Shown here: positions 1 to 19,514 of the stretch, piece by piece
Layout: each line of letters begins with the position of its first letter
Numbering within the stretch: the first letter of the stretch is position 1
From: Candidatus Zixiibacteriota bacterium
GTDB taxonomy: Bacteria; Zixibacteria; MSB-5A5; UBA10806; 4484-95
Assembly (NCBI GenBank): GCA_029932605.1
Contig: JAOZPT010000002.1
Span: 35,739-99,738, forward strand
DNA length: 64,000 nucleotides
Direction of reading: 5' to 3'
Notes under the pieces: generated by a model
Told to the model about the DNA's origin: nothing
Seen by the model: the letters and a program-made list of their open reading frames with translations, nothing else
Databases searched by the model: none
Program-made: the position numbers and the translations under genes

Positions 1-239
1 GGAATTAACATAGAATAAAGAAAGGCGCGCTTGGTAGATTTCGTCTCAAACTCATAAATATCGCCGGTAAGGGGAATTTCCTCAGAGCCGCCAACCGATT
101 TTTCAGCGGCAAAGAAATTATTAGCCACCATTTCATTAGCTGAAAAATATCCTTCGATAGAAACAGGCTCTTTTAATTGACCGGTCCAACCTATGGACGA
201 AAGGGATATAATCAATATAGGCAACAGTATCCTGCGCAT
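1..239 (-). CDS. Partial CDS (N-terminal part, runs off the window edge). Hypothetical secreted protein with an N-terminal signal-peptide-like segment, MRRILLPILIISLSSIGW...
   Basis: Seen in sequence: the reverse complement of 1-239 is an open frame starting at an ATG (complement of 237-239). A GAGGAGG Shine-Dalgarno (complement of 244-250) sits 4 nt upstream. The N-terminus is hydrophobic and signal-like. This ORF is not in the supplied track because it is truncated by the window edge. Confidence 0.45.
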   Translation of the reverse strand, partial: MRRILLPILIISLSSIGWTGQLKEPVSIEGYFSANEMVANNFFAAEKSVGGSEEIPLTGDIYEFETKSTKRAFLYSMLI

Positions 240-249
240 AAAACCTCCT

Positions 250-3200
250 CTATTTAATCAAAGCTACTTTTACAATTACATTTTTCTTTATGTCCGGAGA
301 GCTGGCTTCCAGCCTGGCAAAATACACACCTGAAGCAAATTCCGAGCAATCCCAAGAGACTTCGTTTACTCCCCCTCGAGGAGACGAGCCTTTCAGTTCA
401 TCTACCAGTTCACCCGACATATCGAATATCTTAATATTCACCTCGGCTTGGCGATCGACATAATATCTAAAACAAGTCATATCAGTAGCGGGATTAGGAT
501 AATTGTAAACCTCGGCCTCAGGTAAAAAACCCTCAGCAATCGATATATCCTTATCAAAAGCAGGCGATAGATAACATCTATGGCCGATACCGCCACCAGC
601 CATGGGCCAGGGAAGGTTAATGCTGTCAGTTGAGGTTTCAAGATCCCAGACAGAGACGAATCCAGCGCTGTCCATTGCTGCCACCTCGATATCGCCATCA
701 GCGTCAATGTCACTTACTATCGGCGCCATCGTAATCCTTGTTGAGGTTGGCAGAGGAAACCCACCAAGCATATCGCCATGATAATTGTAACACGCCAACC
801 CGCCATCCGGAAGGCAAACAAGTATATCGGGGTTGTTGTCGGCATCAACATCCGCTATCACTGTTTCCACTTTTTGCATTGCCCAAGACCAACTTTGGGG
901 TAAACGAACAGGGAAACCATCAAATAATACCTCCAGATTATTATATACATACACACAGTCATTACCGCCGGTAAAAATTATCTCAGGATAGCCATCGGAA
1001 TTAATGTCAGCCAATGATGGTGGGCCCGGGCTTTCTATATTTATCGTTTTAATCGTCCCCCTCTGGCCATTATAAATACATAGATAATCGCCCACCGTAA
1101 CGACGGCATCATCGAAGCCATCACGGTCGATATCACCACAGACGATACCGATAACATGGCCATCCGGTAAGCTTATAGTATGTTGCTGGTCTGCATCGTT
1201 CTCACCGTGGTTACGAACATAAAGATTGAAATTATCGGAACTGCCATAAACAACAAAGGTCATTTCATCAGATATGGCAATATCTATGGGGATATCATCG
1301 AGATCATCAATAAGAGTAACGTCAATAGTATCTATATCTGAGATATCGATAAGGTGCAAAGAAGAATCATCGAACCCCACAATAAGCTCATCCTTATTGT
1401 CATTGTCGATATCATAAGCTACCGGACCAGCAGTGAGCGATGCTGACAACGTTTCAGATACCAATAAATCTGCCAAGGAATCAAGCGGTGTTCGATCGTA
1501 TCCCTCAAATATATATAACTTGTTCAAAATATCACAGCAGGCTACTTCCAAGGAATCATCACCATCAAAATCACCAGCTATAAGATTGCCTGTGATATTT
1601 GTATCTAATATGGCAAAAACCGGCAAGACATATATTAGCGAATCGCCATCGAAACCGGGAATTAAAAGGCCGGAGCTGGTGTCCATAACCGGTGAACCAT
1701 CGGGATTCACTGCTATTAGAAACTTTCCGACACCGGTTAATATTTCATTCTGGCCATCCGAATCGATATCCAAAACCAATAAGCCATCACAATTATCACC
1801 AAGATCGGGAAATCCCATTACCGGAAAACCATCCTGGTTCCAGCCGATTGAGATATCACAATACATAAGAGTGTCCGTTTCGGTAATACCGGTTATGGAT
1901 ATATGTGTATCAGCACCGAGATTGGAGCGAGTATCAGGATTAGTTGAGGGGGTAAAATCGGTATTATTGCCGATTTTGAAAAAATCGTCATCAGTGCCAT
2001 AACCGCTAAAATAGTTATAATCTCCCAAATCAACTATACCATCTGCCTCCACCACTGAAACGAAACGCCTGTTTGGGTCCCATTGAAGGGTATTTTGCAG
2101 GAAGTTATTACCACCTTCTCCAACATAATCCATATAAGCTACCGCTTCATCGACATGCCATATCAACACACCATCCCCGGGCAACAACCGGTCGTATTCG
2201 CCGGTCAGGACTTTATATAATTCGTTATTATCATAATAAGCCCAACCTGGGCCAAGGATAACACCCGTTGTCGAATCGGCTATAATTGCATTAGGTATAG
2301 ATGGATCATAATGAATATAATCGAAATCAGCATATCTCTGACGATTTTCTATAAGGAAATATTCCATTTCGGAAATCGGCACTTTCACAATTTCATCGTC
2401 GTGATAGTATTGTTCAGCGGCTGAAATAACGACATTCTGTCCATCAGCGATTTCCCTGACAGCAGAAAAGCCCAAATAAGCACGAGACCAGGCATCGGGA
2501 TAAACGGGTAAGACACCTGTTACAAACGGGCCATCGTCCTCGAAAATTATACTTACTGAAAGACCGTTGTTATCCATAAGAGAAAAATCCCCAACCGCAG
2601 TTTGAAAATTGTAGGTGTTATAGAGGTCAACAAGGCCAAGTTGATGCCCGAATTCATGAGCTAAAACAGCGTTTAACACACCAACCCGATTATCCTGGGA
2701 CACAGTCTCCGGAACGATTAAACCATCGGGTATATCCGTCCAGCCGGCACCATTTGAATCGACGCATACCGGTTCAGCCAACCTTATAAAACCTGTCCAG
2801 AGGTCAAATGGTGTGTCATTGATAAAGGCGATATTGTTCTGCTGGTCGCTACCGGCATGAAATAAAATTACCGATTGATAGTCAGAGAAGTTTATTTCAG
2901 GAGCTAATGTATCCGCTAATTTTACAGCATCTTTAAAAAAGCGTTCAAGTCTAACTACGATACTATCCATTCCCCATGAGGTCTCAGATCCATAATAAGA
3001 TATAGGATTAGGCAATCTAAAAGATAATGTTTCTTCCTGAGGATAAATATCCCATTCAAGGTTAAGTGTTTTATCAGAGACAAACCACCAGTAATTATGA
3101 AGAGCCTCCAGGTGTGATGAGAAATACGATGTGTTGTGAGGAGCCGGGTCAAAATCATGCCCTTCTTCCTCCACGAATTGGTCAAGTGAACGAAGGTCAA

Positions 3201-3531
3201 AGTTGCCGTTACCGGTGGTGGTTGGATCATCAGGGTCCTCTGTTTGGAATTCAATCTTTAAAGCAAGTATACGTATTGTATCAGCTTGGATTGCCAGAGT
3301 TATTGGTATGCCGTTTTTGCGTATAGCAGGACCAAACGGCGTTTCTCTCTCCAATCCCAGAAGGTTTCTTTGACAAATCATAGAGCGAAATTGAATTGTC
3401 CCGGGTGGAATATCATTTTGTTGATAGGTGATTATTTTACCGCCTGCCTGCCGAGGTGTTAAAAGCTTATATTCCCCAGATCCTGCTGGAATGACCAACG
3501 AAATCAACAATATTAAAACAAACCAAACCAC
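250..3531 (-). CDS. Secreted M6 (immune inhibitor A-like) zinc metallopeptidase with FG-GAP/VCBS-type repeats and a T9SS C-terminal sorting domain
   Basis: Seen in sequence: N-terminal signal peptide (MVWFVLILLISLVIPAGSG). HEFGHQLGLVDLY fits the HExxHxxGxxD zinc-binding signature of M6 peptidases. Multiple D-x-D-x-DG repeats are present (DIDSDGQNEIL, DIDRDGFDDAVV, DINSDGYPEIIF, DIDADGDIEV), typical of FG-GAP/VCBS. The last ~80 aa (YNYPNP...GVYFARL...VKV) match the type-A T9SS CTD (TIGR04183-like). Family assignments are from established knowledge. Confidence 0.75.
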   Translation of the reverse strand: MVWFVLILLISLVIPAGSGEYKLLTPRQAGGKIITYQQNDIPPGTIQFRSMICQRNLLGLERETPFGPAIRKNGIPITLAIQADTIRILALKIEFQTEDPDDPTTTGNGNFDLRSLDQFVEEEGHDFDPAPHNTSYFSSHLEALHNYWWFVSDKTLNLEWDIYPQEETLSFRLPNPISYYGSETSWGMDSIVVRLERFFKDAVKLADTLAPEINFSDYQSVILFHAGSDQQNNIAFINDTPFDLWTGFIRLAEPVCVDSNGAGWTDIPDGLIVPETVSQDNRVGVLNAVLAHEFGHQLGLVDLYNTYNFQTAVGDFSLMDNNGLSVSIIFEDDGPFVTGVLPVYPDAWSRAYLGFSAVREIADGQNVVISAAEQYYHDDEIVKVPISEMEYFLIENRQRYADFDYIHYDPSIPNAIIADSTTGVILGPGWAYYDNNELYKVLTGEYDRLLPGDGVLIWHVDEAVAYMDYVGEGGNNFLQNTLQWDPNRRFVSVVEADGIVDLGDYNYFSGYGTDDDFFKIGNNTDFTPSTNPDTRSNLGADTHISITGITETDTLMYCDISIGWNQDGFPVMGFPDLGDNCDGLLVLDIDSDGQNEILTGVGKFLIAVNPDGSPVMDTSSGLLIPGFDGDSLIYVLPVFAILDTNITGNLIAGDFDGDDSLEVACCDILNKLYIFEGYDRTPLDSLADLLVSETLSASLTAGPVAYDIDNDNKDELIVGFDDSSLHLIDISDIDTIDVTLIDDLDDIPIDIAISDEMTFVVYGSSDNFNLYVRNHGENDADQQHTISLPDGHVIGIVCGDIDRDGFDDAVVTVGDYLCIYNGQRGTIKTINIESPGPPSLADINSDGYPEIIFTGGNDCVYVYNNLEVLFDGFPVRLPQSWSWAMQKVETVIADVDADNNPDILVCLPDGGLACYNYHGDMLGGFPLPTSTRITMAPIVSDIDADGDIEVAAMDSAGFVSVWDLETSTDSINLPWPMAGGGIGHRCYLSPAFDKDISIAEGFLPEAEVYNYPNPATDMTCFRYYVDRQAEVNIKIFDMSGELVDELKGSSPRGGVNEVSWDCSEFASGVYFARLEASSPDIKKNVIVKVALIK

Positions 3532-3543: not shown

Positions 3544-6129
3544 TTAAAAACCTACATTCATAGAAAAACGCATTGTGTTACCCATACGGTTGTATCGTTC
3601 ATCTGAGGCGGGAATATATGAAAAATCGAATCTATAGTTTGTCCACTGCAGCGATGCACCAAGGGTTAAATATCTCTGTTCCCCTATCTCATCATAAATG
3701 TACCCGGCGCGCAACGAAACATAGTTTGAATACCAGTATTCAGCGCCAATATGAGGTATAATCTCTTTGATTTCCGTTTCGATGTCATCGTTGAGGTCAA
3801 CTAATAGCTTATCAGCTTCCCCGATAAATGTAAGCTTGTTAAAAGGTGTATCAACAAGTTTGTAGGCGAAAGCTATTGCCAATTTAGTAGGCAACGGGTC
3901 GGCCTGGTCAGCGTCGATATAAGCGATATCGGGACCAATATTAGTTATAGTTGATGCAAATGTCATTTTCCTATTCATACTATATAAGATGCCACCATCC
4001 ACGGCAAAAGAAAAACCAACTCCCTTGCCTTTCTCCATGATAGCACCGACATCGGCAAGATGGGAATTTATATATCTTGCGGATAAGCCAGCAGACATAT
4101 TTTTTGCCAATTTCGTTCCATAAGATAGTGTAATGGCCAAATCGTAGGAGTTAAACTGGCCAATAACCGTGCCAACTTCATCAGTCCGATCCTGCCGACC
4201 ATACGACATAAAGGTTATGCCCAAGCCAAAAGTCCCCCATTCACTGCTGGGATAGACGATGGAGAAGAAATCATAGTAAAGGTCTTTTGCAAGTTGAACC
4301 AAATAATTCGAATGCATGAAAGTAATCTGTCTTACAGCATGAGCAAGAATATATACCTTGTCGTCCGTGGCAAACCACATCTCTCCCGATTCGGTTTTTA
4401 TCGTATGGGTCGGGGTTTTAGCAAGCTCTGGCTTGGAGAATCTGCTCCAGAGGCCATCGTTATATTCAACCACACCATAGGCGGTGCCTATATAGGCTTT
4501 CTTTGAAGAATGTACAGCTATGGAAAGAATCGGAGCACCAAGAGCATTGGCATAAACCATGACACTCCGCCCCTGGTCTATCATTTCCCCTTCCTCAAGA
4601 TTGTTGTATTCCCTGATTAGTCTGGCAAGATGTTGGACTTTTTCTGGGGAAATTCCGGGTAAAAACTCCTTGGCAATTTCCTCTGCAGAAATCATTTTTT
4701 CAGGTTTATATTCCTTATAGCCGAAGTGAAAGAATGTTTTACCGTTAAAAAAGATAACTCCCTTTTGGGTTCCTATCCAAACATTTTTATCTTTGGCTGC
4801 CAGTGAAAGAATTTTACCTTTAAAAGCCAATCTGAAGGGGAGTTTAATCTTCTGACCAACCGTTAAATCCCCTTGAATACCGTTAAAACTCATTATCTCG
4901 CTTTTAATACCCTCTAAATCAATTACAGCCATTGCCCGATAGAAAATATTTATGATGTTATCGATATCCTCGCCAACCGTGACCTCATGCTCAACATAGT
5001 TCCGCCACTCATGGCCATCATAGTAGAAAAGGTCATTTTCATAAGCTGCCCAGATGTTGCGATCATTGGTTGCTGCAATATTAGTAATGTAACCCGATGG
5101 AGGATTTTGCTTGGAAGAATATTTTTTGATCTTGACCCCGTTAAAGTAAACAACCCCTTTAGCGGTGCCAATAACAATGCTTTTCCTTCCTATCCGGCCC
5201 AAAGCCGTGATCTTTAAGGAAGGCAAACTATCCTCTAAACCATACGATTTCCATCTATTCCGCCTGGGATCAAAACGATAGAAACCGTTATCGGTACCGG
5301 TATACAACATACCGCCATGAGATTCCAAACAATTAATTTTTGAACCTAAGATCAAGTCGTAAGGTATCTCGATTTTATTTATTGACCTTTTCCTGATCGC
5401 CTGGTCAAAACCAAAAGCAATCTTGTCAAGCTCCAAATTTGTCATAAGGCTATCGGTTAACCCTTCACGTATTATCTTCTCAAGCGCATTAAAACCATCC
5501 CTATCTATCTTAAGATCATTCCAGGCGTTTCTAAGCTTATCAAAACCAAAAGATATTTCCTCTGAATACTGGTAATCATCGGGGATAAATGGTTGAAGTA
5601 TTTGTTGAAGAGTGTCTATTTTTTCGATCGGGATGTCGTTGTTCAATCTGGTAAGTTTGTCATAATAGTTTTTAATCTGCTCCTCTTCCAACCCTGTATA
5701 GCGAAGCAGTATATTTTTTATCGTTTTCCCTTCCTCTAACGTATGAGTAGTTCCCCTTTTCCATGACTCTCCATTCCATCGTGATATATGTCCATTAATG
5801 ATAGCCCAGACATCATACTGGCGGTAGTTAACCTCAGGAATATCGTTTTTAACGAGAGCGATATTCTCAATTTTTTCTCCCTTATCGGTGCGAATCTCAA
5901 TCCAGCTTGGTGATAAAGGATACCTGCCCAAACCAGCAGGATTCCAGTGGGTTGCTGTGGCATCATCCGAAATAGCGACAAACGTTTCCCCCATACCGCC
6001 GGCTCTGGCTCCGGGAGCAATAAGCAGAAACGGCACCGCGGTTTGAGAAACCTGGCCAAAGACACTTATAACTAATATTGCTATCATTATTGGTACCCAT
6101 GCCAGCACCTTTTTCATATTATCCTCCAA
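3544..6129 (-). CDS. PorV/PorQ-family T9SS outer-membrane beta-barrel with a large inserted beta-propeller (two-component-regulator-propeller-like repeats)
   Basis: Seen in sequence: signal peptide, then VPFLLIAPGARAGGMGETFVAISDDATATHWNPAGLG, which matches the N-terminal signature of PorV/PorQ (and UPF0164) barrels. The C-terminal ~330 aa alternate hydrophobic residues in a beta-strand pattern and end in -NVGF, as outer-membrane barrels do. Between these lies ~480 aa with repeated G-T-x-x-G-(V/F)-x-x-(F/Y)-(N/D)-G-x-x-W motifs (GTDNGFYRFDPRRNRWKSY, VWIGTQKGVIFFNGKTFF, AYIGTAYGVVEYNDGLWSRF) resembling Reg_prop repeats. This middle-domain assignment is an inference. Confidence 0.6.
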   Translation of the reverse strand: MEDNMKKVLAWVPIMIAILVISVFGQVSQTAVPFLLIAPGARAGGMGETFVAISDDATATHWNPAGLGRYPLSPSWIEIRTDKGEKIENIALVKNDIPEVNYRQYDVWAIINGHISRWNGESWKRGTTHTLEEGKTIKNILLRYTGLEEEQIKNYYDKLTRLNNDIPIEKIDTLQQILQPFIPDDYQYSEEISFGFDKLRNAWNDLKIDRDGFNALEKIIREGLTDSLMTNLELDKIAFGFDQAIRKRSINKIEIPYDLILGSKINCLESHGGMLYTGTDNGFYRFDPRRNRWKSYGLEDSLPSLKITALGRIGRKSIVIGTAKGVVYFNGVKIKKYSSKQNPPSGYITNIAATNDRNIWAAYENDLFYYDGHEWRNYVEHEVTVGEDIDNIINIFYRAMAVIDLEGIKSEIMSFNGIQGDLTVGQKIKLPFRLAFKGKILSLAAKDKNVWIGTQKGVIFFNGKTFFHFGYKEYKPEKMISAEEIAKEFLPGISPEKVQHLARLIREYNNLEEGEMIDQGRSVMVYANALGAPILSIAVHSSKKAYIGTAYGVVEYNDGLWSRFSKPELAKTPTHTIKTESGEMWFATDDKVYILAHAVRQITFMHSNYLVQLAKDLYYDFFSIVYPSSEWGTFGLGITFMSYGRQDRTDEVGTVIGQFNSYDLAITLSYGTKLAKNMSAGLSARYINSHLADVGAIMEKGKGVGFSFAVDGGILYSMNRKMTFASTITNIGPDIAYIDADQADPLPTKLAIAFAYKLVDTPFNKLTFIGEADKLLVDLNDDIETEIKEIIPHIGAEYWYSNYVSLRAGYIYDEIGEQRYLTLGASLQWTNYRFDFSYIPASDERYNRMGNTMRFSMNVGF

Positions 6130-6261: not shown

Positions 6262-9200
6262 CTAACGCAAAATCACTAATTTCGACTGAAAACTCGACTT
6301 CCTGCGAACGCCATCAACACCTGTACCGATTGCCTCAATTTTATAGATATAAACTCCGCTGGCAAGTTTATCACCATCATCATCCCTAAGATAGTAAGGA
6401 ACATATTTGTATCCCCCGGTGGTGTATGTCGTTCCGGTCAAATCGAAACTTTTAACTTTCCTTCCCGATAAGGAAAATATCTTAAGCGATACTTTTTCGG
6501 CGGAACCGGTCAGCATATATTGAAAAACGGTCGAGTCAGCTCTGACAACAGGGTTGGGATAGTTCATCACTCTCTGTATAGAGAAATACTCATCCTGGTA
6601 TACCCGGATAACTGCTGTAAACAGGGAGGAGTTATTGTAATTGTCCCAGGCTTTTAATGAAATTTGATGTTCGCCCTCAGGGATATCCGATATCTCAAAA
6701 GTTGCCGAGCCCTGTTGCCAATCCCCCTTATCGAATATGAAATTATTTGTGATATCCTCTGAATAAATATCACCATCATCCAATTTCACCACAATTCCAT
6801 GCCCCATTGAACCGGTCATATTGATACCATGGAGGTCAAATAAACGGGTTTCAAACACGGCATTAGCAGAGACAGCGGTTAGACCACTGTTCAACATCTT
6901 ACCGTTATATAAAATCTCTATGGTTGGACCGATAGAATCGGCCTCGGCAGAAATCCCGCCAGCGATTGATATCGAATCTACAACCCCCGAACCATCTACA
7001 AAACCGTTCTCGAAATAAACATAAATTCTGGCTCTGCTTCCGCCATAGGTGATATCCTTGGGTATAAAAAACGATGTCGAGAACTGGCCATTGCTGACCT
7101 CGGCTGGACCGTTGAAAATAGTTGGCCCGGGAAGAATGTAATCAACATATATCGGCGGATATAAGGGAACACCGGCGTAATTAGTCAAGGCTTTATGCCT
7201 GTTAATTAAAGCATCTTTGACAAGCACCCAGACAGTGCCGTTGAAATCTGACATAAACAAACTATCCTGATAGATCTCGCCGGATATAGAATCAATTGTT
7301 AAACCCCTTAAGGAATCCGGCCTGTAGGTAAAATGCGCTTCAAGCGAGGGTTTTCCAGCAATCAATGCCGGATCGCTAAAAATTACATATCCCCTATCGT
7401 TGTCAATACTGCCTCTGAGAAACTTTGCTATATAAAGTGCCCCACCAAAAGATGTTGAATCACCGAACAACAGTTGATCAAATATCTCCCTATTTAAAGC
7501 GGAGTTTTGTCCAGCATTGACCGGCCTTGTGGCTCCGATAGAGGCGATAGCCCCGCCGTTGGGGTAACGAATAAAATCCTCGGACATCCCCTGTTCATTG
7601 GGGTCATCGAAAAACCCGACCGAACATGAAGCGGCTAATATCATAGGCAGTTTATCATGATTGTGAAGGAGTGGTATATCTTCAATCCTTCTAAATAAAA
7701 TCTCATGAGCCCACAATCCTTTGTTGCCATGACCGATCCAGTTGACTATCAGTCCACCATTATTAATAGCACTAATAAGAGCCTCTCTGGCATCAGGTTT
7801 TGTCCTGCCGGCGCGAATTGGATACTCCAGCATATAAATTTTTTGCACCTCGATATTTTTGGGCACATGTAATTCAGCTAAAGCTTCGGCTTGATTTGTA
7901 TGGAACGCCTCTCTCATACCATCACCAAAATTGTCATCAGCGGCGATGATGATGTTATTGCGCCACTTTCCTATAGTCGGATTGGATTCATAGTTGATAA
8001 TTTTCTCGACAACAATATCCATCTGGTCAGTACTGTTCACCGGTATGCGACCAATTATCATATCTATACTGCCGGAATCATCATAGTCCAAATCACCAAA
8101 CTGACCAAAATAGATATAATTATCATCGGAAGCTGAGGCTGTTGTACTGTTGGGTTTGGGGGCTTCAAACGGTGGTATGAACATTCCCCCGCTTGAGCCA
8201 AGATTGTTTCGGTAATCGAAATGCCCATCACCTACCAGCATTACATACCCCGGTGGTGCACCGCTCCAGTTTTCATAGGCGTATTTCAAGAAATCTCTTA
8301 TGGCCATCGGATCAAACAAACCCCAGCTAAACTGATTATATATATCTTCAATATCCACCACCATAGCGGTTATACCAGGAGAAACACTTTCCCTATGAGC
8401 AGCCAGCTCCAGCGACTGCTGATAGAATTGCCCATGGGTGATGATTATGTAATCAGCCCTGTTCGAGGCCGATTTCAGATCAACAGGTTCATAAAGGTCA
8501 AAACTGCTGACCGTCTTATAACGTGATGAATTAGCAAGATAATACAAACGCCTCAAGTAGTTATAATGTTGAAATCTCAATTCAGAACCAGATAATTCAG
8601 CATTGACAATCAGGCAGACACTGTCAGGATATGAGATATCAAGAAGTATGTAATCCGAAGGAACATTGGTTAACCTGTATTCTATCAAACCCGGAGAATC
8701 AGGGCTTGAAAACATAAGTTTATTGTCTAATACATACAGTAAACGGTTGTAGTGAACATCGATATAATCAAGGTAAAATTTGGCAGTATCAGTAACCGAT
8801 ATTATATTAAAACCACTCCTAAAATTTGTAGAATTATAAAGAAAGATACCATTGTAACTCGATATCAATCCAGCCTCGACATTATTTACCAAAAGATTTT
8901 TCATTCCTCCACTTGCTTTAACTACAACCAGCGCTTCACTGCCAGTCACAACATCGAACAGTTGAACATTCGATGTGAAAGTCGTATCCCAACCCCAGTA
9001 CCATTCGAAATAATTATAGTAATCAGTGCTTGTACCCTTTTGATAAAATTTAACTTCCCTTTCTTCATGTATAAAGTCGTCAAAACTTGTCACAGCATAA
9101 TCGTACGGTTCCTGAGGCGAACCATCAACTTCAGCCCATCTTTTAGGAGAAGAGGCAAAAGAACCGTTATATGTTAACCAGTAGACGTTCTTCGAGGTAT

Positions 9201-10233
9201 AATGGTTATGCCGAAAAACAAACCTACTATCATCAGGGCTGTATTCGAACCTGTCGGTAGCTTCGGCATAAAACAGTATCTGGTCTCCACCGTCAAATTC
9301 GCCATCATCCTCCCCTATTACATGAATTGGTATCTCGTACAGTTGGGGTCTTGGTTCATCGTTGTCAAACGGTAACTCGGCTCCCCCCCCGTAAAATATT
9401 CTTATCTGTCGGGGGTCAACCTCATCGATCTCAACTCCAGCAGTTGAGAGTTCATAACGACCGATTTTATAAACTCCAGCATCGGTCACCTCAAGTTTTA
9501 CCCAAACCAACGATGAATCGAAAACAGATTGACTTATCTGGGTTTTTGAGGGAATCGGTGGCCAATAGATACGCCAGTTTTTAGCTATATCATAATTGGC
9601 TATTATCCGAGGAAGAATGTTTTCGAATACCTGACCAACTGGCCGCGGAGGATAATAACCACCTTTTTTCGCGCTGTTAAAATCAACCCTTACCGTTATG
9701 GTTTCACCTTTATATAACATTCCATTTTCTATCTTAGCTGCCGCTATTCCGATTTTTATGACTCTTAAACCGCGTAACATCTCTTCTCCGAAGATAAAGG
9801 CGGTATGTAAAGGCCAGTTTTTCTCAGATGTGATCCGGTTAGAGGCCCTGGATGAATAATCCTGCGAAGGTAATTCAACATCAAAATTGGGAACATCCGA
9901 TTTTCCAATGTTATTGTAATGTTGGCTTAAGACTGTTACTGTTGGCTTAGAATCATAGGGAACACCTATCGGAATAAACTTTAAAGGCAAAAGAGGTTGA
10001 CCCTGACAACGATTTTGTGCAGTCCGGGATATCTGTGGATATTTGAAATTTTCAGGATAACCGTTAATACTGGTCAGAACGACATCGGGAACAAAATATG
10101 TAAACGTAATTCCATTTTCATCAGAAACCAATATCTTTACGTCACTATCAAATATCTTTTCAGCTTGAGCAAAATTAAAGAATACAATTAATAAAAAAGT
10201 GGTAATTATCGCATTTAAGGCGAGCCTCATCAA
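6262..10233 (-). CDS. Gingipain-like C25 cysteine peptidase with a T9SS C-terminal sorting domain
   Basis: Seen in sequence: signal peptide (MMRLALNAIITTFLLIVFFNFAQA). A catalytic His context (NWIGHGNKGLWAHE) and a catalytic Cys context (ILAASCSVGFFDD) typical of peptidase family C25. A C-terminal NYPNPV...KIFSLSGRKV...GVYIYKIEA block matches the T9SS CTD. At 1323 aa, the size fits a propeptide plus catalytic domain plus Ig-like domains plus CTD. Confidence 0.8.
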   Translation of the reverse strand: MMRLALNAIITTFLLIVFFNFAQAEKIFDSDVKILVSDENGITFTYFVPDVVLTSINGYPENFKYPQISRTAQNRCQGQPLLPLKFIPIGVPYDSKPTVTVLSQHYNNIGKSDVPNFDVELPSQDYSSRASNRITSEKNWPLHTAFIFGEEMLRGLRVIKIGIAAAKIENGMLYKGETITVRVDFNSAKKGGYYPPRPVGQVFENILPRIIANYDIAKNWRIYWPPIPSKTQISQSVFDSSLVWVKLEVTDAGVYKIGRYELSTAGVEIDEVDPRQIRIFYGGGAELPFDNDEPRPQLYEIPIHVIGEDDGEFDGGDQILFYAEATDRFEYSPDDSRFVFRHNHYTSKNVYWLTYNGSFASSPKRWAEVDGSPQEPYDYAVTSFDDFIHEEREVKFYQKGTSTDYYNYFEWYWGWDTTFTSNVQLFDVVTGSEALVVVKASGGMKNLLVNNVEAGLISSYNGIFLYNSTNFRSGFNIISVTDTAKFYLDYIDVHYNRLLYVLDNKLMFSSPDSPGLIEYRLTNVPSDYILLDISYPDSVCLIVNAELSGSELRFQHYNYLRRLYYLANSSRYKTVSSFDLYEPVDLKSASNRADYIIITHGQFYQQSLELAAHRESVSPGITAMVVDIEDIYNQFSWGLFDPMAIRDFLKYAYENWSGAPPGYVMLVGDGHFDYRNNLGSSGGMFIPPFEAPKPNSTTASASDDNYIYFGQFGDLDYDDSGSIDMIIGRIPVNSTDQMDIVVEKIINYESNPTIGKWRNNIIIAADDNFGDGMREAFHTNQAEALAELHVPKNIEVQKIYMLEYPIRAGRTKPDAREALISAINNGGLIVNWIGHGNKGLWAHEILFRRIEDIPLLHNHDKLPMILAASCSVGFFDDPNEQGMSEDFIRYPNGGAIASIGATRPVNAGQNSALNREIFDQLLFGDSTSFGGALYIAKFLRGSIDNDRGYVIFSDPALIAGKPSLEAHFTYRPDSLRGLTIDSISGEIYQDSLFMSDFNGTVWVLVKDALINRHKALTNYAGVPLYPPIYVDYILPGPTIFNGPAEVSNGQFSTSFFIPKDITYGGSRARIYVYFENGFVDGSGVVDSISIAGGISAEADSIGPTIEILYNGKMLNSGLTAVSANAVFETRLFDLHGINMTGSMGHGIVVKLDDGDIYSEDITNNFIFDKGDWQQGSATFEISDIPEGEHQISLKAWDNYNNSSLFTAVIRVYQDEYFSIQRVMNYPNPVVRADSTVFQYMLTGSAEKVSLKIFSLSGRKVKSFDLTGTTYTTGGYKYVPYYLRDDDGDKLASGVYIYKIEAIGTGVDGVRRKSSFQSKLVILR

Positions 10234-12216: not shown

Positions 12217-12337
12217 AGTAAGATAGATTGTTATATAATATTAGGGTAGTTTATTGGCAAGGTAAAAGATTTAACCGGGTTGCCGGGAACCTCTTCCCAA
12301 GTAAACAGAACCCTGTCAGGAATGGGTACATACGGTA

Positions 12338-12520
12338 CTACAGGTTATTTTTTTTATTCTTTTTACCCTTATCATCCACTACCCAGCCCTCGCCAACAGC
12401 ATCCTTCAAATTTCTCTTCTTTGCACTGTGTCGAGGCTTCTTGCCAATTTCACGTAATAGTGATAATGATAATCTGAATAGTAGAAGCACTGCGATTATG
12501 ATTAAGATTATTCGTAGCAA
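12338..12520 (-). CDS. Candidate small membrane protein (60 aa, TTG start): one TM helix followed by a Lys-rich tail
   Basis: Seen in sequence: TTG start with GGAG 6 nt upstream (complement of 12527-12530). An N-terminal hydrophobic helix (LRIILIIIAVLLLF) is followed by a basic, charged C-terminus. No homology support. Confidence 0.3.
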   Translation of the reverse strand: MLRIILIIIAVLLLFRLSLSLLREIGKKPRHSAKKRNLKDAVGEGWVVDDKGKKNKKNNL

Positions 12521-12544
12521 TTATTTCTCCTTATATAGTACGTA

Positions 12545-12603
12545 CCGTCAGGTCGCCCGACCTGACGGCTTGTTTGTTAAAGTGGTCGGACGAGGTAAAC
12601 CGA
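12545..12603. repeat. Two GC-rich hairpins. A perfect 11-bp palindrome ccgtcaggtcg-cc-cgacctgacgg (12545-12568) and a 5-bp stem gtcgg...ccgac (12584-12603)
   Basis: Seen in sequence: the perfect inverted repeat lies between the stop of the 172-aa gene and the SD of the small TTG ORF. No U-tract follows on the minus strand, so it is not a canonical intrinsic terminator. Confidence 0.5.
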
Positions 12604-12649
12604 CAGCATGTTTATCTAGGGTATCTTGTCCAATGCTTCGCTATATACT

Positions 12650-13168
12650 TTAATTACTATATGTCCCATCGACTATTTCAAAATCCCTAATTTTTAGTTC
12701 CTCCAAACTAGTTAAATCAAACCATTTTTTTCTTTCTTCTGAAACGTGTTCCACAAACATTCTAAATTTTCTAATCAGTTCCTCCAACATTTGGGAGAAT
12801 TCCCATTGTTTCAAGGCTTCTATCCTTTTATAGGTGATGTGCGCCAGGTACTTGTTTACATCATTGTGCTCTTCTATTAAGTATCTTGTTTTTTTACCTC
12901 TTTTTTCTTCCCAGCGTTTAACGTCATTAACGTAATCGATCGATAATATATCATCATCTTTATTTTTTGAAGACTTATAGAGGAAATCTATGAGGTTACG
13001 CCAATGAATAAGAAATGACTCTATGAAAATATTTTTCAGATAAATATCGTCTTTTGCTTTAAATATCATTCTAAATGCATAATGGAGATGCCTAATTTCA
13101 TATTGTAAGGTTTTCACCCCTTCTCTCAACTTCTCATCGTTACCTTTTAAGATAACTCGCTTTTTCAT
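12650..13168 (-). CDS. Hypothetical protein, low GC, predicted all-alpha. Possible HEPN-like R-x5-H motif (RYLIEEH)
   Basis: Seen in sequence: 172 aa, K/E-rich, local GC clearly below the neighbours. No recognisable catalytic family. The HEPN suggestion is an inference from a single RYLIEEH match. Confidence 0.5.
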   Translation of the reverse strand: MKKRVILKGNDEKLREGVKTLQYEIRHLHYAFRMIFKAKDDIYLKNIFIESFLIHWRNLIDFLYKSSKNKDDDILSIDYVNDVKRWEEKRGKKTRYLIEEHNDVNKYLAHITYKRIEALKQWEFSQMLEELIRKFRMFVEHVSEERKKWFDLTSLEELKIRDFEIVDGTYSN

Positions 13169-13174
13169 CTCATC

Positions 13175-14725
13175 CTACTCCCACTCAATCGTCGCTGGTG
13201 GTTTAGATGATATATCATACACCACCCGGTTGATGCCTTTGACCTCGTTGATTATGCGATTGGAAACCAAGGCTAAAAAATCCTCGGGCAGCCGTGCCCA
13301 GTCAGCGGTCATGGCATCGGTGGAGGTTACCGCACGCAAGGTTACTACATTTTCATAGGTTCGTTCATCGCCCATTACACCCACGCTCTTAACCGGCAGA
13401 AGAACACAGAACGCCTGCCAGGTTTTGTTGTAAAGTTTGTGTCGATATAGTTCCTTAATGAATATATCATCAGCCTGTCGCAGAAGGTCTAATCTCTTTG
13501 GCGTAACTGCTCCGATAATTCTAACTGCCAGCCCCGGTCCGGGGAATGGATGGCGCATGGTAAGACTTTTAGGAAGACCAAGTTTAGCTCCAACCATCCG
13601 AACCTCGTCTTTAAAAAGCTCTCGCAGAGGTTCCACAAGTTTTAGGTGCATCCGACTGGGAAGGCCACCTACGTTATGGTGGGATTTTATCGTCGCAGAC
13701 GGCCCCTTGAATGAAACCGATTCAATCAAATCCGGATAAAGCGTTCCCTGGGCTAAGTATTTAATTTTACCAAGCTTATTTGCCTCTTTGGTAAAGACCT
13801 CTATAAAGGTGCGGCCAATTATCTTTCTTTTGCGTTCCGGGTCAGCCACACCCTGCAATCGTTTTAAAAAAAGCTTGGAGGAATCAACATATCTGAGATC
13901 CAATCTCAATTTCTCAAATGAGCTGATAACCTCCTCAGGCTCATTAAGTCGCAACAGGCCATTATTGATGAAGATACAGACGAGATTTTTGCCAACGGCT
14001 TTATGCAGGAGCATAGCCGTCACCGAAGAATCGACTCCACCGGAGAGAGCACATATCACCCTGTTATTGCCAAGGTGCTCTTTCAAATCATCTATCCGGG
14101 TTTTAATGAACGATGTTGGAGTCCAGTTAGCTTTAGCACCGCATATATCAAATAAAAAATTAGCGATTATTTGACTGCCGTATTCGGTATGGGCTACCTC
14201 CGGATGAAATTGCAAGGCATAAACATTCCTCGCCTTATTTTCAATGACAGCATTGGCAAGGGTTTCGGTTGAGGCTGTGGTTTTAAAACCCGGCGGAAGT
14301 TTTATTACCGAGTCACCATGGCTCATCCAGACCTTTGATGTTTTCGGAAGGTTTTTTAAAATAGGTGAGGCTGATTTGCTACCAGCTCGAAAGCGAAGTT
14401 TAAGAACAGCCGGGCCATACTCCCTGGTTTTTGCCCTCTTGACCTTGCCACCAAGTATATCGACAAGGTGCTGTAGACCGTAGCATATACCAAGTATCGG
14501 CAAACCCGATTTCAGCCAGCCCGGATGGAGATGTGGAGCGTTTTCATCGTGTACCGACGATGGTCCACCTGAAAGGATTATGCCTTTGATAGACTTGTCC
14601 GGCTTCACAGCAGGTGGTGTATCATGTTGAACAAGTTCTGAAAAGACATTGTACTCGCGAACCCGCCTTGTTATAAGCTGTGAGTATTGTGAACCAAAAT
14701 CCAGTATTATTATTTTATCAACCAT
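13175..14725 (-). CDS. guaA: GMP synthase (glutamine-hydrolysing)
   Basis: Seen in sequence: an N-terminal class I glutamine amidotransferase ([20 protein letters not shown]), a central ATP-pyrophosphatase SGGVDSSV motif and the GuaA C-terminal dimerisation domain. 516 aa. Confidence 0.95.
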
Positions 14726-16338
14726 TATCCCTTTCCCGAAAAATCTCTCTGAATAATCGTGTTTTTTCTGAAATTTTCATCATCCCTCTCTGGAAAATCA
14801 ATATTATAGTGAAGCCCACGGGACTCTTTGCGAAGTAAAGCTGATTTTATCAATATCAATGCAACATCAGCGATATTACGAAGCCTCAAAACCTCTTGAC
14901 GAATAGGATTTTTCTTATAGAACTGCCTTATGTGTTTGCGCATCATCATACAACGATCGTAGGCCTTCTTCAGACGGTTTTTCGAGCGTACAATACCGAC
15001 ATAATCCCACATCAGCATACGGATCGTCTGTAAATCATGGGAAACAATAACCCACTCATGATGGTCAAATACACCGGATTCATCCCATGGAGGGAGAGCA
15101 AAGGTTTTTCTTTTTTTGAGCGAGGAGAAGTTTTTGATAGTCCATCGAGCGGCGAAATCGGCAAATGCAACGGCCTCTAAAAGAGAATTCGAGGCCAAAC
15201 GGTTTGCGCCATGCATACCGGTGCATGCTACTTCGCCAGCCGCAAGAAGATTCTTTATCGAGGTGCACCCGTTTATATCCGTAAGGACACCTCCACAGAA
15301 GTAATGGGCTGCGGGCACAACCGGTATCGGCTCTTTAACCGGATCAATACCCAGACTTCGACATTTTTTGACTATGGTTGGGAATCGCCTTTCAATAAAA
15401 GTCTTACTCCGATGAGAAATGTCTAAATAAACACATTCATTGCCAGTTTCTTTTAAAACCTCATCTATGGCTCTAGCAACAACATCACGAGGGGCAAGCT
15501 CCGCCATTGGATGATAACCCTCCATGAAACGTTCGCCATTTGATGACAGAAGTACTCCACCCTCACCGCGAAGCGCTTCCGTTATCAAAAACGGTTTATC
15601 GTCAGTTGTATAAAGCCGCGTTGGGTGAAACTGGACAAACTCGAGGTTTGCAATTTTCGCTCCGGCACGATATGCCATGGCTACACCATCGCCGGTAGCA
15701 ATATCAGGATTGGTTGTATGTTGATATACGTATCCCGCACCACCTGTAGCAAGCATAGTCAAATTGGCGTTTAACGTCTTCACCTTGTTTAGCTTGTTAT
15801 CGTAAACATAAACACCATAACAGGTCAGTTTGCTTTTGGGTATTTTCTTTCCAAGACGATATTGAGTAATGATATCAATCGCGGTATGCTCCTCGAACAA
15901 GTCGATATTTTCATAACCCGCCAGAGAATTCAAAAGCGCCATCTCAATATTACGTCCTGTATGATCTGCAGAATGGACTACACGATTATGGGAATGCCCA
16001 CCTTCCCGGCCAAGGTCGTATTTCCCACGACAATGGGAAAACTGGACACCAAGGTTAACAAGTTCCTTTATGTATTCAGGTCCTCTTTTCACAACTCTTT
16101 TTACGACCTCTTCGTCACAGAGGCCACAACCTGTTTTTAAAGTGTCTTCAATATGGTTCTTATAGCTGTCGGTTTTATCAAATACCGAAGCAATACCCCC
16201 CTGAGCATAGTTGGTCGAAGTGTCGATACGGTTCTTTTTGGTGATAATGGCTATTTTCCCCAGACGAACTGTTTTAAGAGCGTACATCAAACCTGCTATA
16301 CCAGAACCGATAACCAGGATGTCATAATTTTCGCTCAT
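14725..16338 (-). CDS. nadB: L-aspartate oxidase
   Basis: Seen in sequence: N-terminal FAD-binding motif ([13 protein letters not shown]) in a fumarate reductase/succinate dehydrogenase flavoprotein-like fold, with HYFCGGV near the C-terminal third. Size is ~537 aa. The start overlaps the guaA stop by 1 nt. Confidence 0.8.
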
Positions 16339-18589: not shown

Positions 18590-19227
18590 CTTCCCACCTC
18601 GTTTAATACATCAGCTAAGATATGACTGTGACGTTTAATTTGCATTTGGCTTTTGACGTTTTCCAAAAGTATCGGTTGACCGTACTGCACAACAATCTCC
18701 GCAAAAGGTTTGGGTATTTGAAAACGGTCCCAGGATGAAAGCACCCATTTCTTCGAACTATTGCAGGATACCGGTATAATAGGCAAACCCGATCTGGAGG
18801 CTAAAAATATCACTCCGGGCTTGACAATTCCTCGGGGACCTTTGGGTCCATCAACCGTTATCGCTAAGTCTTTAGCCTTCTCATTTTTTATCATCCCGAA
18901 AAGACCGGAAACTCCCATCTTTGTCGATGAGCCTCGGATAGGGTAATAGCCCATACGCTTAACTATGCGAGCAATGATCTCACCATCGATATGAGTCGAT
19001 ATCAGAATGCCAATATTTCTATTGCGGTGAGTATAACAAAGACTGAGAATACGGTTATGCCAGAAACAGAATATTACTTTACCGTATTTTGCCCTGCACT
19101 GATTTAGCTCGGTTTTGCCCACATATCTTATTTTCCATGTTGAGCCGATAAGTTTGATAATAAACGGCCCGAGAAAACGAGCAACAAACAGTAAAAGTTT
19201 TTGCTTTAATGTGAAGCTCTTGTCCAT
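18580..19227 (-). CDS. DUF374/lysophospholipid-acyltransferase-like protein commonly linked to waaA
   Basis: Seen in sequence: 215 aa with an H-x4-D-like acyltransferase signature (FWHNR, DGEIIARIV). It overlaps waaA by 10 nt. Established knowledge: DUF374 genes frequently sit next to kdtA/waaA. Confidence 0.55.
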   Translation of the reverse strand: MDKSFTLKQKLLLFVARFLGPFIIKLIGSTWKIRYVGKTELNQCRAKYGKVIFCFWHNRILSLCYTHRNRNIGILISTHIDGEIIARIVKRMGYYPIRGSSTKMGVSGLFGMIKNEKAKDLAITVDGPKGPRGIVKPGVIFLASRSGLPIIPVSCNSSKKWVLSSWDRFQIPKPFAEIVVQYGQPILLENVKSQMQIKRHSHILADVLNEVGSCT

Positions 19228-19514
19228 TATAATAGGAAATATTAATCTACAAACCAGTCAAAGTCAATTTTAATGTAGTTACAATTAAGATATAGTGAAC
19301 CTTTAATAGTTGACCCTTTCCAGAGTTAATTAAAAACTGGCTTTTTCTGAGATAGGTGCGAGGCTGGAAAACATCGCCTATTAGGGTGGTGTTTTTGAAA
19401 ACTGTAATTTTGAGATTTTTTAGTGGAACTCCTCGTATAATTCTAACTGACTTAAAAAATTATTGACATAATTAAATATAGTGGCACAGCATTTTTGTGT
19501 TTGAAAAATAGTCA

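What the first reader, a model, noticed from the sequence alone, without database searches (positions are those of the whole stretch)
3544..6129. PorV/PorQ-family barrel with a ~480-aa inserted beta-propeller (Reg_prop-like repeats): an unusual architecture
Canonical PorV proteins are ~390 aa. Here the N-terminal signature strand (PFLLIAPGARAGGMGETFVAISDDATATHWNPAGLG) and the C-terminal barrel (~330 aa ending in NVGF) are separated by a domain with four or five G-T-x-x-G-(V/F)-x-x-(F/Y)-(N/D)-G-x-W repeats. These resemble the two-component-regulator propeller found in sensor kinases. This would be a ligand- or cargo-binding propeller grafted into a T9SS shuttle protein, which I do not recall being described.
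Basis: partly seen in the sequence, partly recalled or inferred. Interest (0 to 1): 0.65.

Follow-up and report, generated by a model that had tools for sequence, protein, structure and literature searches.

The report
PorV barrel with periplasmic propeller–LysM insert
This gene encodes the outer-membrane PorV protein of a type IX secretion system, carrying a 527-residue seven-bladed propeller with three LysM-like units inserted just before the first barrel strand; the form is conserved across Zixibacteria and probably hangs into the periplasm, not out from the cell surface.

Summary
Window 3544-6117 (-) encodes an 857-aa protein. It has a signal peptide, a FadL-type hatch motif (..HWNPAGLG), a 527-aa insert (residues 69-595) and a 14-strand PorV-family barrel (596-857). 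The insert folds with high confidence (pLDDT 93) as a seven-bladed Reg_prop propeller most like Bacteroides hybrid two-component sensor domains.

The architecture is not a one-off. More than 200 sequence clusters have it, mostly from MAGs named Zixibacteria. It always lies in a conserved cluster: porU sortase, this gene, an M6-like protease with a T9SS sorting domain, then two small DUF5683-like proteins.

Published structural anchors in F. johnsoniae PorV place the insertion point at the periplasmic start of strand 1. The propeller is therefore most likely periplasmic, and neither a surface cargo binder nor a PorZ-like surface module. My best reading is a PorV whose periplasmic module tethers the PorU-PorV complex to peptidoglycan and/or periplasmic T9SS parts, like a fused PorE-PorP pair. 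Sidedness and peptidoglycan binding are inferred, not shown. I found no paper describing this. It is a new variant of a known kind and moderately interesting.

The parts
3544..6117 (-). Whole gene: PorV-family protein with insert (857 aa plus stop). The true start is the ATG at 6117, not the TTG at 6129.
   Evidence: ORF list; translation; 100% match to P0001, 857 aa; RBS context.
6123..6127 (-). GGAGG Shine-Dalgarno site, 6 nt upstream of the ATG.
   Evidence: Read directly from the sequence.
6052..6117 (-). Signal peptide, residues 1-22 (MKKVLAWVPIMIAILVISVFGQ).
   Evidence: Sequence features; low conservation of 0.41. The cleavage site is inferred.
5914..6051 (-). FadL/PorV-type N-terminal hatch segment, residues 23-68, with the invariant W58-N59-P60 (NPA) motif. 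It is the most conserved part of the protein.
   Evidence: Aligns to FjPorV 1-63; mean conservation 0.87; the NPA hatch motif of FadL is described in PMC8407342. pLDDT is below 50 in the model, so placement inside the barrel is not verified.
4333..5913 (-). Insert, residues 69-595: a seven-bladed Reg_prop-type beta-propeller carrying three LysM-like insertions and a helical extension.
   Evidence: Insert-only AF2 model has pLDDT 93.1 and pTM 0.87. Top Foldseek hits are BT4673, BT4663 and BT3049 sensor propellers, with PorZ at rank 23. Profile against 4a2l gives E=5e-42 in 7 stretches.
5383..5754 (-). LysM-like unit 1 (about residues 122-165) plus a helical extension (166-245).
   Evidence: hhalign of residues 118-165 against LysM unit 2 gives 96.7% probability; helices seen in DSSP. 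There is no Pfam LysM hit for this unit.
4825..4998 (-). LysM unit 2, residues 374-431, inserted after blade 4.
   Evidence: Pfam LysM scores 34.3 bits in homologue P0067 but only 15.6 bits (below the 20.9 cut-off) in the window protein. G382, N412, G421 and P427 are invariant or nearly so.
4543..4719 (-). LysM unit 3, residues 467-525, inserted after blade 5.
   Evidence: Pfam LysM scores 25.4 bits in homologue P0098, with no hit in the window protein. hhalign against unit 2 gives 98.2% probability. A482, N505 and G516 are invariant.
3547..4332 (-). 14-strand PorV-family beta-barrel, residues 596-857, ending in a C-terminal Phe.
   Evidence: PorV models; DSSP strands; Foldseek 8gl6_F E=6.6e-14 with TM 0.61 on the target; strand parity anchored on FjPorV N87, F115 and 193-199.
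6262..10233 (-). Upstream gene: PorU, the T9SS C25-type sortase (1323 aa).
   Evidence: NF033707 scores 687 bits against a cut-off of 420; Peptidase_C25 E=7e-87. It lies immediately upstream in every locus whose contig reaches that far.
250..3531 (-). Downstream gene, starting 12 nt after the PorV stop: an M6-like metalloprotease with FG-GAP repeats and a type A T9SS C-terminal sorting domain (1093 aa).
   Evidence: Conserved position in the genome loci. The HExxH motif is present in all 81 sequences examined.
1..239 (-). Start of the first of two conserved DUF5683-like small proteins that complete the five-gene cluster. Most of it, and all of the second, lie beyond the window edge.
   Evidence: Locus L081 from the same organism: genes at 12331-13146 and 13148-13927. 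Conserved downstream in 56 loci. The window coordinate is inferred from the 11-nt spacing in L081.

Best explanation

The barrel and its conserved extracellular loops probably do the usual PorV job. They bind type A C-terminal sorting domains of cargo and hold PorU at the surface.

The difference is a 527-residue module spliced between the luminal hatch and barrel strand 1. It is a seven-bladed Reg_prop propeller decorated with three LysM-like units.

Strand 1 starts at the periplasmic rim, and both ends of the insert meet there. The module therefore most likely sits in the periplasm, directly under the barrel. I infer that it tethers the PorU-PorV complex to peptidoglycan through the LysM units. 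It may also dock the complex onto periplasmic T9SS components through the propeller face. One polypeptide would then do what the PorE (propeller plus peptidoglycan-binding domain) and PorP (PorV-family barrel) pair does in Porphyromonas.

Shown: the architecture, the fold, conservation, the operon, and the insertion point relative to FjPorV.
Inferred: periplasmic location, peptidoglycan binding and the tethering role.
For: - Family: PorV/PorQ family scores 238.8 bits (cut-off 90), and PorV scores higher than PorQ (180.9 vs 83.3 bits). The best structural matches of the barrel are PorV chains 8gl6_F and 6h3i_F.
- Partner: PorU is encoded immediately upstream. The porU, porV-insert, M6-CTD order holds in the 80 genome loci wherever the contig extends, and in the most distant members at 23% identity.
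- Fold of the insert: pLDDT 93.1, seven blades, nearest to BT4673, BT4663 and BT3049. The profile gives E=5e-42 to 4a2l.
- LysM: 19 of 43 homologues hit Pfam LysM (best 5.7e-11). Units 2 and 3 exceed the gathering score in homologues. The three units are mutually homologous at 94-98% hhalign probability. Their hallmark Gly/Asn/Gly residues are invariant.
- Topology: Lauber 2024 (PMC10994853) places FjPorV N87 and F115 in extracellular loops and 193-199 in a periplasmic loop. The alignment maps these to K611, Y639 and 713-717. With the DSSP strands, this gives 14 strands with S1 = 597-604 running from periplasm to outside. Residue 596 is therefore at the periplasmic rim.
- Precedents: PorE binds peptidoglycan and binds the PorV-like barrel PorP (PMC9143113). 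Inverse autotransporters combine an outer-membrane barrel with a peptidoglycan-binding LysM domain (PMC5595812).
Against: - No model coordinates were available, so the side of the membrane was not read from the model. It rests on alignment and strand parity.
- The hatch segment (1-64) has pLDDT below 50, so its position in the barrel lumen is unverified.
- In the window protein itself the LysM units fall below Pfam's threshold (15.6 bits, or no hit). Unit 1 never hits Pfam LysM.
- LysM and Reg_prop domains bind many glycans, so peptidoglycan is only the likeliest ligand in a periplasmic setting.
- The T9SS gene inventory of Zixibacteria (PorE, PorZ, PorQ, PorK/N, SprA) could not be determined. 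'Replaces PorE' is therefore untested.
- A peptidoglycan-tethered PorV fits poorly with the classical 'freely diffusing shuttle' model.
Confidence: 0.5

Rival explanations
1. The propeller is exposed on the cell surface. It acts as a PorZ-like or lectin module fused to PorV, binding LPS, glycan or cargo for the PorU transpeptidase. This is essentially the first reader's idea.
For: - PorZ consists of two propellers that its authors compare to BT4663 (PMC5121618).
- PorZ appears among the fold matches of the insert (rank 23, E=2.5e-7). There is a faint NCBIfam PorZ hit (19.1 bits).
- No PorZ or PorQ gene lies in the conserved cluster, in the 64-kb window or in the +/-10 kb flanks.
Against: - The insertion point is before strand 1 at the periplasmic rim, not in an extracellular loop.
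- A 527-residue folded domain would have to cross the outer membrane.
- Sequence similarity to PorZ is negligible (PDB profile E=0.013 against 5e-42 for the sensor kinases). There is no C-terminal sorting domain.
- In the examples retrieved, outer-membrane barrels carry their LysM domains on the periplasmic side.
Confidence: 0.17
2. The propeller is periplasmic but is not a wall anchor. It serves as a docking or receptor platform that binds periplasmic T9SS parts (ring, chaperone, translocon) or incoming cargo or glycan. The LysM-like units would be structural only.
For: - In F. johnsoniae the periplasmic face of PorV contacts SkpA. In P. gingivalis PorV and PorQ sit above PorK.
- The LysM units are degenerate in the window protein.
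- The most conserved insert motif (N91, P94, N97, D102, W104) lies in blade 1, outside the LysM units.
Against: - LysM hallmark residues are invariant across 43 homologues down to 36% identity.
- Units 2 and 3 score above Pfam threshold in many members, which argues for retained LysM function.
- No partner was identified.
Confidence: 0.25
3. It is not a T9SS component in function. It would be a FadL-like small-molecule channel whose hatch is controlled by a periplasmic glycan-sensing propeller.
For: - PorV belongs to the FadL family. FadL, TodX and TbuX appear among the fold matches.
- The hatch NPA motif is invariant.
- Reg_prop propellers sense glycans in hybrid two-component systems.
Against: - It scores far better against PorV models than against FadL. 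Toluene_X hits only 1 of 43 members.
- It is invariably flanked by PorU and a cargo protein carrying a sorting domain.
- The PorV-type extracellular loop motif NxGPxIxYxD...PLP is shared with FjPorV.
Confidence: 0.05
4. It is an assembly or gene-calling artefact that fuses two genes.
For: None found.
Against: - It is a single uninterrupted ORF.
- 222 homologous clusters have the same length and order, from many independent assemblies including closed chromosomes.
- The insert lies inside the PorV domain rather than end to end with it.
Confidence: 0.01

Closest known systems
PorV of Flavobacterium johnsoniae / Porphyromonas gingivalis (PDB 6H3I and 8GL6 chain F; NCBIfam NF033710, NF033709)
   Same: - Same family by sequence and fold: N-terminal hatch motif, 14-strand barrel and conserved extracellular-loop motifs.
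- Encoded next to the PorU sortase.
- Genome contains type A sorting-domain cargo.
   Different: - A 527-aa propeller/LysM module lies between the residues equivalent to Fj 63 and 68.
- It lacks the roughly 50-aa Fj loop 258-311.
- It scores below the PorV equivalog cut-off (180.9 vs 250).
- The host phylum is Zixibacteria, not Bacteroidota.
PorE-PorP complex of P. gingivalis
   Same: Functional analogy only. A PorV-family 14-strand barrel (PorP) is joined to a periplasmic protein with a beta-propeller and a peptidoglycan-binding domain (PorE), bridging the outer membrane and the wall (PMC9143113).
   Different: - Here the two would be one polypeptide.
- The wall-binding candidate is LysM, not OmpA_C. 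There is no TPR or CRD domain.
- The propeller is Reg_prop type, not WD40.
- The barrel is closer to PorV than to PorP, and the partner is PorU rather than a type B cargo.
- No homology to PorE was shown.
Periplasmic sensor domains of Bacteroides hybrid two-component systems (BT4663 4A2L, BT4673 3OTT/3VA6, BT3049 3V9F; Pfam Reg_prop PF07494)
   Same: Closest relatives of the insert by sequence profile (E=5e-42) and by fold. They are seven-bladed Reg_prop propellers located in the periplasm and known to bind glycans.
   Different: - Single propeller rather than a tandem pair.
- No Y_Y_Y domain, transmembrane helix or kinase.
- Carries LysM-like insertions.
- Embedded in an outer-membrane barrel.
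PorZ (PDB 5M11; NF052228)
   Same: A T9SS attachment-complex protein built from Reg_prop-like seven-bladed propellers. It is a distant fold match to the insert.
   Different: - PorZ is a secreted surface protein with its own C-terminal sorting domain, anchored through PorQ.
- Sequence similarity is negligible (19.1 bits vs cut-off 260; PDB profile E=0.013).
- The insert has no sorting domain and is predicted to be periplasmic.
Inverse autotransporters with a periplasmic LysM domain (intimin, YeeJ)
   Same: An outer-membrane beta-barrel carrying a LysM domain that binds peptidoglycan (PMC5595812).
   Different: - Unrelated barrel family.
- A single N-terminal LysM rather than three LysM-like units nested in a propeller.
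- Different secretion system.
FadL / TodX / TbuX hydrophobic-compound channels
   Same: Parent superfamily of PorV: a 14-strand barrel with an N-terminal hatch bearing an NPA motif.
   Different: - Only weak matches (Foldseek E about 1e-6; Toluene_X in 1 of 43 members).
- No propeller.
- Not linked to PorU.

Membership tests
PorV/PorQ family (NCBIfam NF033709; Pfam PF19572) | Scores above the curated cut-off of the family models. | tested here: met
   NF033709 scores 238.8 bits against a cut-off of 90. PF19572 scores 77.3 bits against a cut-off of 27, in two stretches. All 43 homologues hit PF19572.
PorV/PorQ family (NCBIfam NF033709; Pfam PF19572) | 14-strand FadL-like outer-membrane barrel. 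| tested here: met
   The AF2 DSSP pattern gives 14 membrane strands from 597 to 856, with pLDDT about 70-80. Foldseek top hits are 8gl6_F and 6h3i_F, TM 0.60-0.61 on the target.
PorV/PorQ family (NCBIfam NF033709; Pfam PF19572) | N-terminal hatch with an NPA motif that plugs the barrel. | tested here: inconclusive
   The motif is present and invariant (W58, N59, P60) and aligns to FjPorV 1-63. The segment has pLDDT below 50 in the model, so its position is not established.
PorV proper (NCBIfam equivalog NF033710) | Scores above the equivalog cut-off. | tested here: not met
   It scores 180.9 bits against a cut-off of 250, split into three stretches by the insert. It still scores far above PorQ (83.3 bits) and PorV2 (49.6 bits).
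PorV proper (NCBIfam equivalog NF033710) | Genomic and functional partnership with the PorU sortase. | tested here: met
   PorU (687 bits) is encoded directly upstream on the same strand. This holds in all loci with enough contig. Physical interaction is not testable here.
PorV proper (NCBIfam equivalog NF033710) | Binds type A C-terminal sorting domains and carries cargo from the translocon. | not testable with these tools
   Only indirect evidence is available. The extracellular-loop motifs shared with FjPorV are conserved. Cargo with type A sorting domains is present in the window.
Reg_prop two-component regulator propeller (Pfam PF07494) | Repeat scores above the gathering threshold, and the repeats form a beta-propeller. 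| tested here: met
   It scores 23.2 bits against a cut-off of 20.4, and 40 of 43 homologues hit (best 3.4e-16). The profile hits 4a2l at E=5e-42 in 7 stretches. The seven-bladed model has pLDDT 93.
LysM domain (Pfam PF01476) | Scores above the gathering threshold, with the beta-alpha-alpha-beta fold. | tested here: inconclusive
   The window protein scores 13.7-15.6 bits against a cut-off of 20.9. The orthologous segments score 34.3 bits (P0067) and 25.4 bits (P0098), and 19 of 43 members hit. The secondary structure is beta, two helices, beta. The units are related to one another at 94-98% hhalign probability.
LysM domain (Pfam PF01476) | Binds GlcNAc-containing glycans such as peptidoglycan. 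| not testable with these tools
   Needs binding assays. Only the conservation of hallmark Gly/Asn/Gly residues was shown.
PorZ (NCBIfam NF052228) | Two propellers plus a retained C-terminal sorting domain, scoring above the cut-off. | tested here: not met
   It scores 19.1 bits against a cut-off of 260. PDB profile to 5m11 gives E=0.013. There is one propeller and no Por_Secre_tail in this protein.
PorE | TPR, WD40 propeller, CRD and OmpA_C-like peptidoglycan-binding domains in a lipoprotein. | tested here: not met
   No TPR, CRD or OmpA family hit at E<=0.1 in the Pfam or NCBIfam scans. The resemblance is functional analogy only.

The most novel reading that the evidence does not exclude
In Zixibacteria the T9SS carrier PorV would be a fixed, wall-anchored trans-envelope element: barrel, periplasmic propeller and peptidoglycan-binding LysM units in one chain. 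The PorU sortase complex would then be held in place on the sacculus rather than shuttling. This would be a single-polypeptide equivalent of the PorE-PorP arrangement. It would offer a natural test of whether T9SS carrier barrels need coupling to the wall or to the periplasmic machinery.
Probability: 0.3. Interest if true: 0.7.

Novelty: new variant of a known kind. Interest (0 to 1): 0.55.

Why it matters
Almost all T9SS work has been done in Bacteroidota, where PorV is a plain barrel of about 390 aa. How carrier and attachment complexes are positioned and energised there is still debated (free shuttle versus association with the PorK/N ring).

A phylum-wide PorV with a large, confidently folded module at its periplasmic mouth shows that the carrier can be hard-wired to something in the periplasm. 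The LysM-like units make peptidoglycan a concrete, testable candidate.

It also gives a well-defined soluble domain (residues 69-595) for binding and structural studies. The conserved five-gene porU cluster is a compact target for reconstitution. If the module turned out to be surface-exposed instead, it would be a fused PorZ-like element, which would also be new.

Tried and rejected
- Structure prediction returns no coordinates. The side of the membrane could not be read from the model and had to be inferred from alignment anchors.
- Literature searches for Zixibacteria together with type IX secretion, T9SS or PorV found no paper. The Lauber 2018 paper was not held.
- Cluster look-ups of 20 distant representatives gave a taxon name for only one (Zixibacteria). 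The taxonomic limits of the family rest on the record titles.
- I searched for a second PorV-family barrel, or a stand-alone copy of the insert, in the window and in 84 loci and found none.
- PorZ-fusion idea: rejected as a membership claim and kept only as a low-probability functional rival.
- The promoter and terminator scan gave nothing above chance between the genes. This is consistent with an operon but does not prove one.
Full report
**1. What is at the coordinates**

The minus strand carries an ORF at 3544..6129. Its translation begins LEDNMKKVL.... The TTG at 6129 overlaps a GGAGG Shine-Dalgarno site at 6123-6127, which lies 6 nt before the ATG at 6117. The identical database protein P0001 (857 aa) starts at that ATG. 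It is labelled a hypothetical protein of 'candidate division Zixibacteria bacterium 4484_95'. I therefore take 3544..6117 as the gene and use 857-residue numbering throughout.

**2. Domain content**

- Pfam PorV matches in two separate stretches. Reg_prop scores 23.2 bits against a cut-off of 20.4.
- NCBIfam PorV/PorQ family scores 238.8 bits (cut-off 90).
- The PorV equivalog scores 180.9 bits, below its cut-off of 250. PorQ scores 83.3 and PorZ 19.1.
- A profile of 43 homologues (alignment A1) hits F. johnsoniae PorV (6h3i_F) at E=3e-43 in three pieces: query 1-63 to Fj 1-63, 595-776 to Fj 68-258, and 778-860 to Fj 311-395.
- The same profile hits the periplasmic sensor domain of BT4663 (4a2l) at E=5e-42 in seven stretches. 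PorZ (5m11) reaches only E=0.013.

The protein is therefore a PorV-family sequence interrupted between the residues equivalent to Fj 63 and 68. The interrupting segment is 527 residues long (69-595) and of Reg_prop type. The strict pattern G[TS]xxG[VILFM]xx[FYW][NDE] occurs four times (274, 317, 449, 544), against 0.003 expected from shuffles.

**3. Structure predictions**

The full-length AF2 model has mean pLDDT 81.5 and pTM 0.75. The insert scores 85-95, the barrel about 70-80, and residues 1-64 fall below 50. Its best PDB matches are:
- the PorV chains 8gl6_F and 6h3i_F (TM 0.60-0.61 on the target);
- then the BT4673, BT3049 and BT4663 sensor domains;
- FadL, TodX and TbuX further down.

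The insert predicted on its own gives pLDDT 93.1 and pTM 0.87. Its strand pattern is that of seven four-stranded blades, closed by the N-terminal strand. Top matches are again the Bacteroides hybrid two-component sensor propellers. PorZ is at rank 23, among many generic seven- and eight-bladed propellers.

**4.

- Nineteen of 43 homologues hit Pfam LysM, with a best E-value of 5.7e-11.
- I cut out the helical interruptions of the propeller and scanned them separately.
- The segment equivalent to residues 374-431 scores 34.3 bits in P0067. The segment equivalent to 467-525 scores 25.4 bits in P0098. Both exceed the 20.9-bit threshold.
- In the window protein the same segments score 15.6 bits and nothing.
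- By profile-profile comparison, units 2 and 3 are homologous (98.2% probability). The first part of the large helical region (118-165) is homologous to both (96.7% and 94.2%).
- The LysM hallmark positions are invariant or nearly so across A1: G130/N159, G382/N412/G421/P427 and A482/N505/G516.

The insert is thus a seven-bladed propeller with LysM-like units after blades 1, 4 and 5. The first unit is followed by a helical extension of about 80 residues.

**5. Distribution**

- The word-indexed search returned 222 clusters. The 120 listed are 637-950 aa long, nearly all 840-890 aa, at 36-100% identity. Where named, they are called PorV/PorQ family protein of Zixibacteria.
- An exhaustive search with the insert alone found 64 representative clusters (50% identity level) at E<1e-30. 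Most are 850-1050 aa, with the match beginning at about residue 70-100. After these come generic Reg_prop proteins that match only residues ~190-320 of the insert query (about 258-388 of the protein).
- A scan of one genome per species found 517 loci. The best 80 almost all cover essentially the full length; a few are cut by contig ends.
- About 45 of the 80 are titled Zixibacteria or Zixiibacteriota, including closed chromosomes CP070742, CP070813 and OY969724. Most of the rest are co-assembly MAGs titled 'uncultured Ignavibacteria' or 'uncultured bacterium'. I could not verify those labels.
- Variants of about 1050 aa carry a tandem duplication of blade 1 plus the first LysM-like and helical module.
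- Conservation is highest in the hatch (0.87), then the barrel (0.71), then the insert (0.51).

**6. Genomic context**

- Upstream on the same strand is PorU (NF033707, 687 bits). Downstream, 12 nt after the stop, is an M6-like metalloprotease with FG-GAP repeats and a type A T9SS sorting domain.
- This order holds in every one of the 80 loci where the contig reaches far enough.
- Two paralogous DUF5683-like small proteins follow in 56 loci.
- The two most distant members examined (23% identity in the insert) have the same five-gene order.
- No second PorV-family barrel lies in the window or within 10 kb in any locus.
- No terminator-like site separates the genes.
- The window also encodes a GldF-GldG fusion next to an ABC ATPase, and another cargo protein with a sorting domain. 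A T9SS-type sorting system is evidently in use.

**7. Which side of the membrane**

The tools give no coordinates, so I reasoned from published anchors.

- Lauber et al. 2024 (PMC10994853) state that FjPorV Asn87 and Phe115 lie in the extracellular loops that hold the cargo sorting domain. They also state that residues 193-199 form a periplasmic loop touching SkpA.
- The residue identities at 87, 115 and 193-199 in the 6h3i_F sequence printed match, so the numbering agrees.
- The alignment maps N87 to K611, in the loop between predicted strands 597-604 and 614-624.
- It maps F115 to Y639, in the upper part of the long hairpin 628-645 / 651-671.
- It maps 193-199 to residues 713-717, the turn between strands 700-713 and 718-727.
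- I treat the poorly predicted, highly conserved 728-744 stretch as an extracellular loop. The strands then count to 14 and end in a C-terminal Phe at the periplasmic side.
- Strand 1 (597-604) runs from periplasm to outside. Residue 596, the end of the insert, is therefore at the periplasmic rim.

The other end of the insert follows the NPA hatch motif. In FadL-family proteins this motif belongs to the N-terminal segment that plugs the lumen (PMC8407342). That the hatch joins strand 1 at the periplasmic end is standard outer-membrane-protein topology; this is my own knowledge, not tested here.

I therefore rate a periplasmic location at about 0.7. The low confidence of the hatch in the model is the main weakness.

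**8. Mechanism**

The barrel, its conserved loops and the invariable PorU neighbour indicate an ordinary PorV role at the surface. That role is binding type A sorting domains and holding PorU.

A periplasmic propeller with LysM-like units suggests tethering to peptidoglycan, docking to periplasmic T9SS components, or both. Relevant precedents are:
- PorE (propeller plus peptidoglycan-binding domain) bound to the PorV-like barrel PorP (PMC9143113);
- contacts of the periplasmic face of PorV with SkpA, and a position above PorK;
- inverse autotransporters with a peptidoglycan-binding LysM domain (PMC5595812).

These are analogies. There is no homology to PorE, and no OmpA_C, TPR or CRD domain is present.

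Rival readings are:
- a surface-exposed PorZ-like or lectin module;
- a periplasmic docking platform without wall binding;
- a FadL-like channel gated by a glycan sensor;
- an artefact, which is excluded.

**9. Novelty**

I found no paper in the held library that mentions Zixibacteria together with T9SS or PorV. The T9SS papers I consulted describe PorV simply as a 14-stranded FadL-family barrel. Database names ('PorV/PorQ family protein', 'ligand-binding sensor domain-containing protein') show that automated annotation sees the pieces but not the architecture. I class it as a new variant of a known kind.

It is a solid, phylum-wide, structurally well-predicted elaboration of a T9SS core component, and the sidedness and ligand hypotheses are clearly testable. 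It is not a new kind of system.

Noticed in passing
window 250-3531 (-) and loci L001-L084: The gene after porV encodes an M6-like metalloprotease with FG-GAP repeats and a T9SS sorting domain. Its closest NCBIfam model is the 'T9SS-dependent M6-like inactivated metalloprotease' (381.7 bits, below the 600 cut-off). However, HExxH is intact here (HEFGH at residue 292) and in all 81 homologous loci. NCBIfam also has PorU2 and PorV2 models, which suggests a parallel PorU2/PorV2/M6i system elsewhere.
   Followed up: partly
window 1-239 (-) and beyond the left edge; L081 12331-13146 and 13148-13927: Two paralogous small proteins (271 and 259 aa; a faint or clear DUF5683 hit, hydrophobic segments, no NCBIfam family) follow the M6-like gene in 56 loci. 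They complete a conserved five-gene porU cluster. Their function is unknown.
   Followed up: partly
window 25214-27745 (-), 27661-28602 (-), 24202-25203 (-): A single 843-aa ORF matches both GldF (permease) and GldG of the gliding-associated ABC transporter, so it looks like a GldF-GldG fusion. It is flanked by an ABC ATPase (GldA-like) and a DUF4340 protein.
   Followed up: no
window 16335-21013 (-): Lipid A and core genes lpxK, the Kdo transferase (waaA) and lpxB lie on the same strand a few kb upstream of the porU cluster. This may be relevant if cargo is attached to LPS.
   Followed up: no
window 42348-43616 (-): A 422-aa protein with an F510_1955-like glycosylhydrolase region and a type A T9SS sorting domain. 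It is another likely cargo.
   Followed up: no
window 31887-32531 (+): A lone Cas6b-like gene (Cas6b_N plus Cas6b_C). No CRISPR array was found in 31500-33000, and no other cas genes were noticed nearby.
   Followed up: partly
window about 28600-32500: Gene orientation switches here. Nearly all ORFs are on the minus strand to the left and on the plus strand to the right, up to about 42 kb. Cumulative GC skew has its minimum here and GC falls to 0.345. A ParA-like gene lies at 33590-34462. This could be a replication origin region, but no dnaA was seen.
   Followed up: no
window 28656-30332 (+): A 558-aa protein with a Wzi capsule-assembly outer-membrane domain, followed by a PMT_2 glycosyltransferase-like membrane protein at 30392-31624.
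   Followed up: no
P0122, P0123, P0125 and loci L047, L049, L052-L055, L059, L063: A sub-lineage has PorV proteins of about 1020-1050 aa. In these, blade 1 plus the first LysM-like and helical module is tandemly duplicated.
   Followed up: partly
window 49302-56615 (+): A run of co-oriented genes ends in a BatD-domain protein (54768-56615). It looks like a MoxR/Bat aerotolerance-type operon. Only BatD was checked.
   Followed up: no
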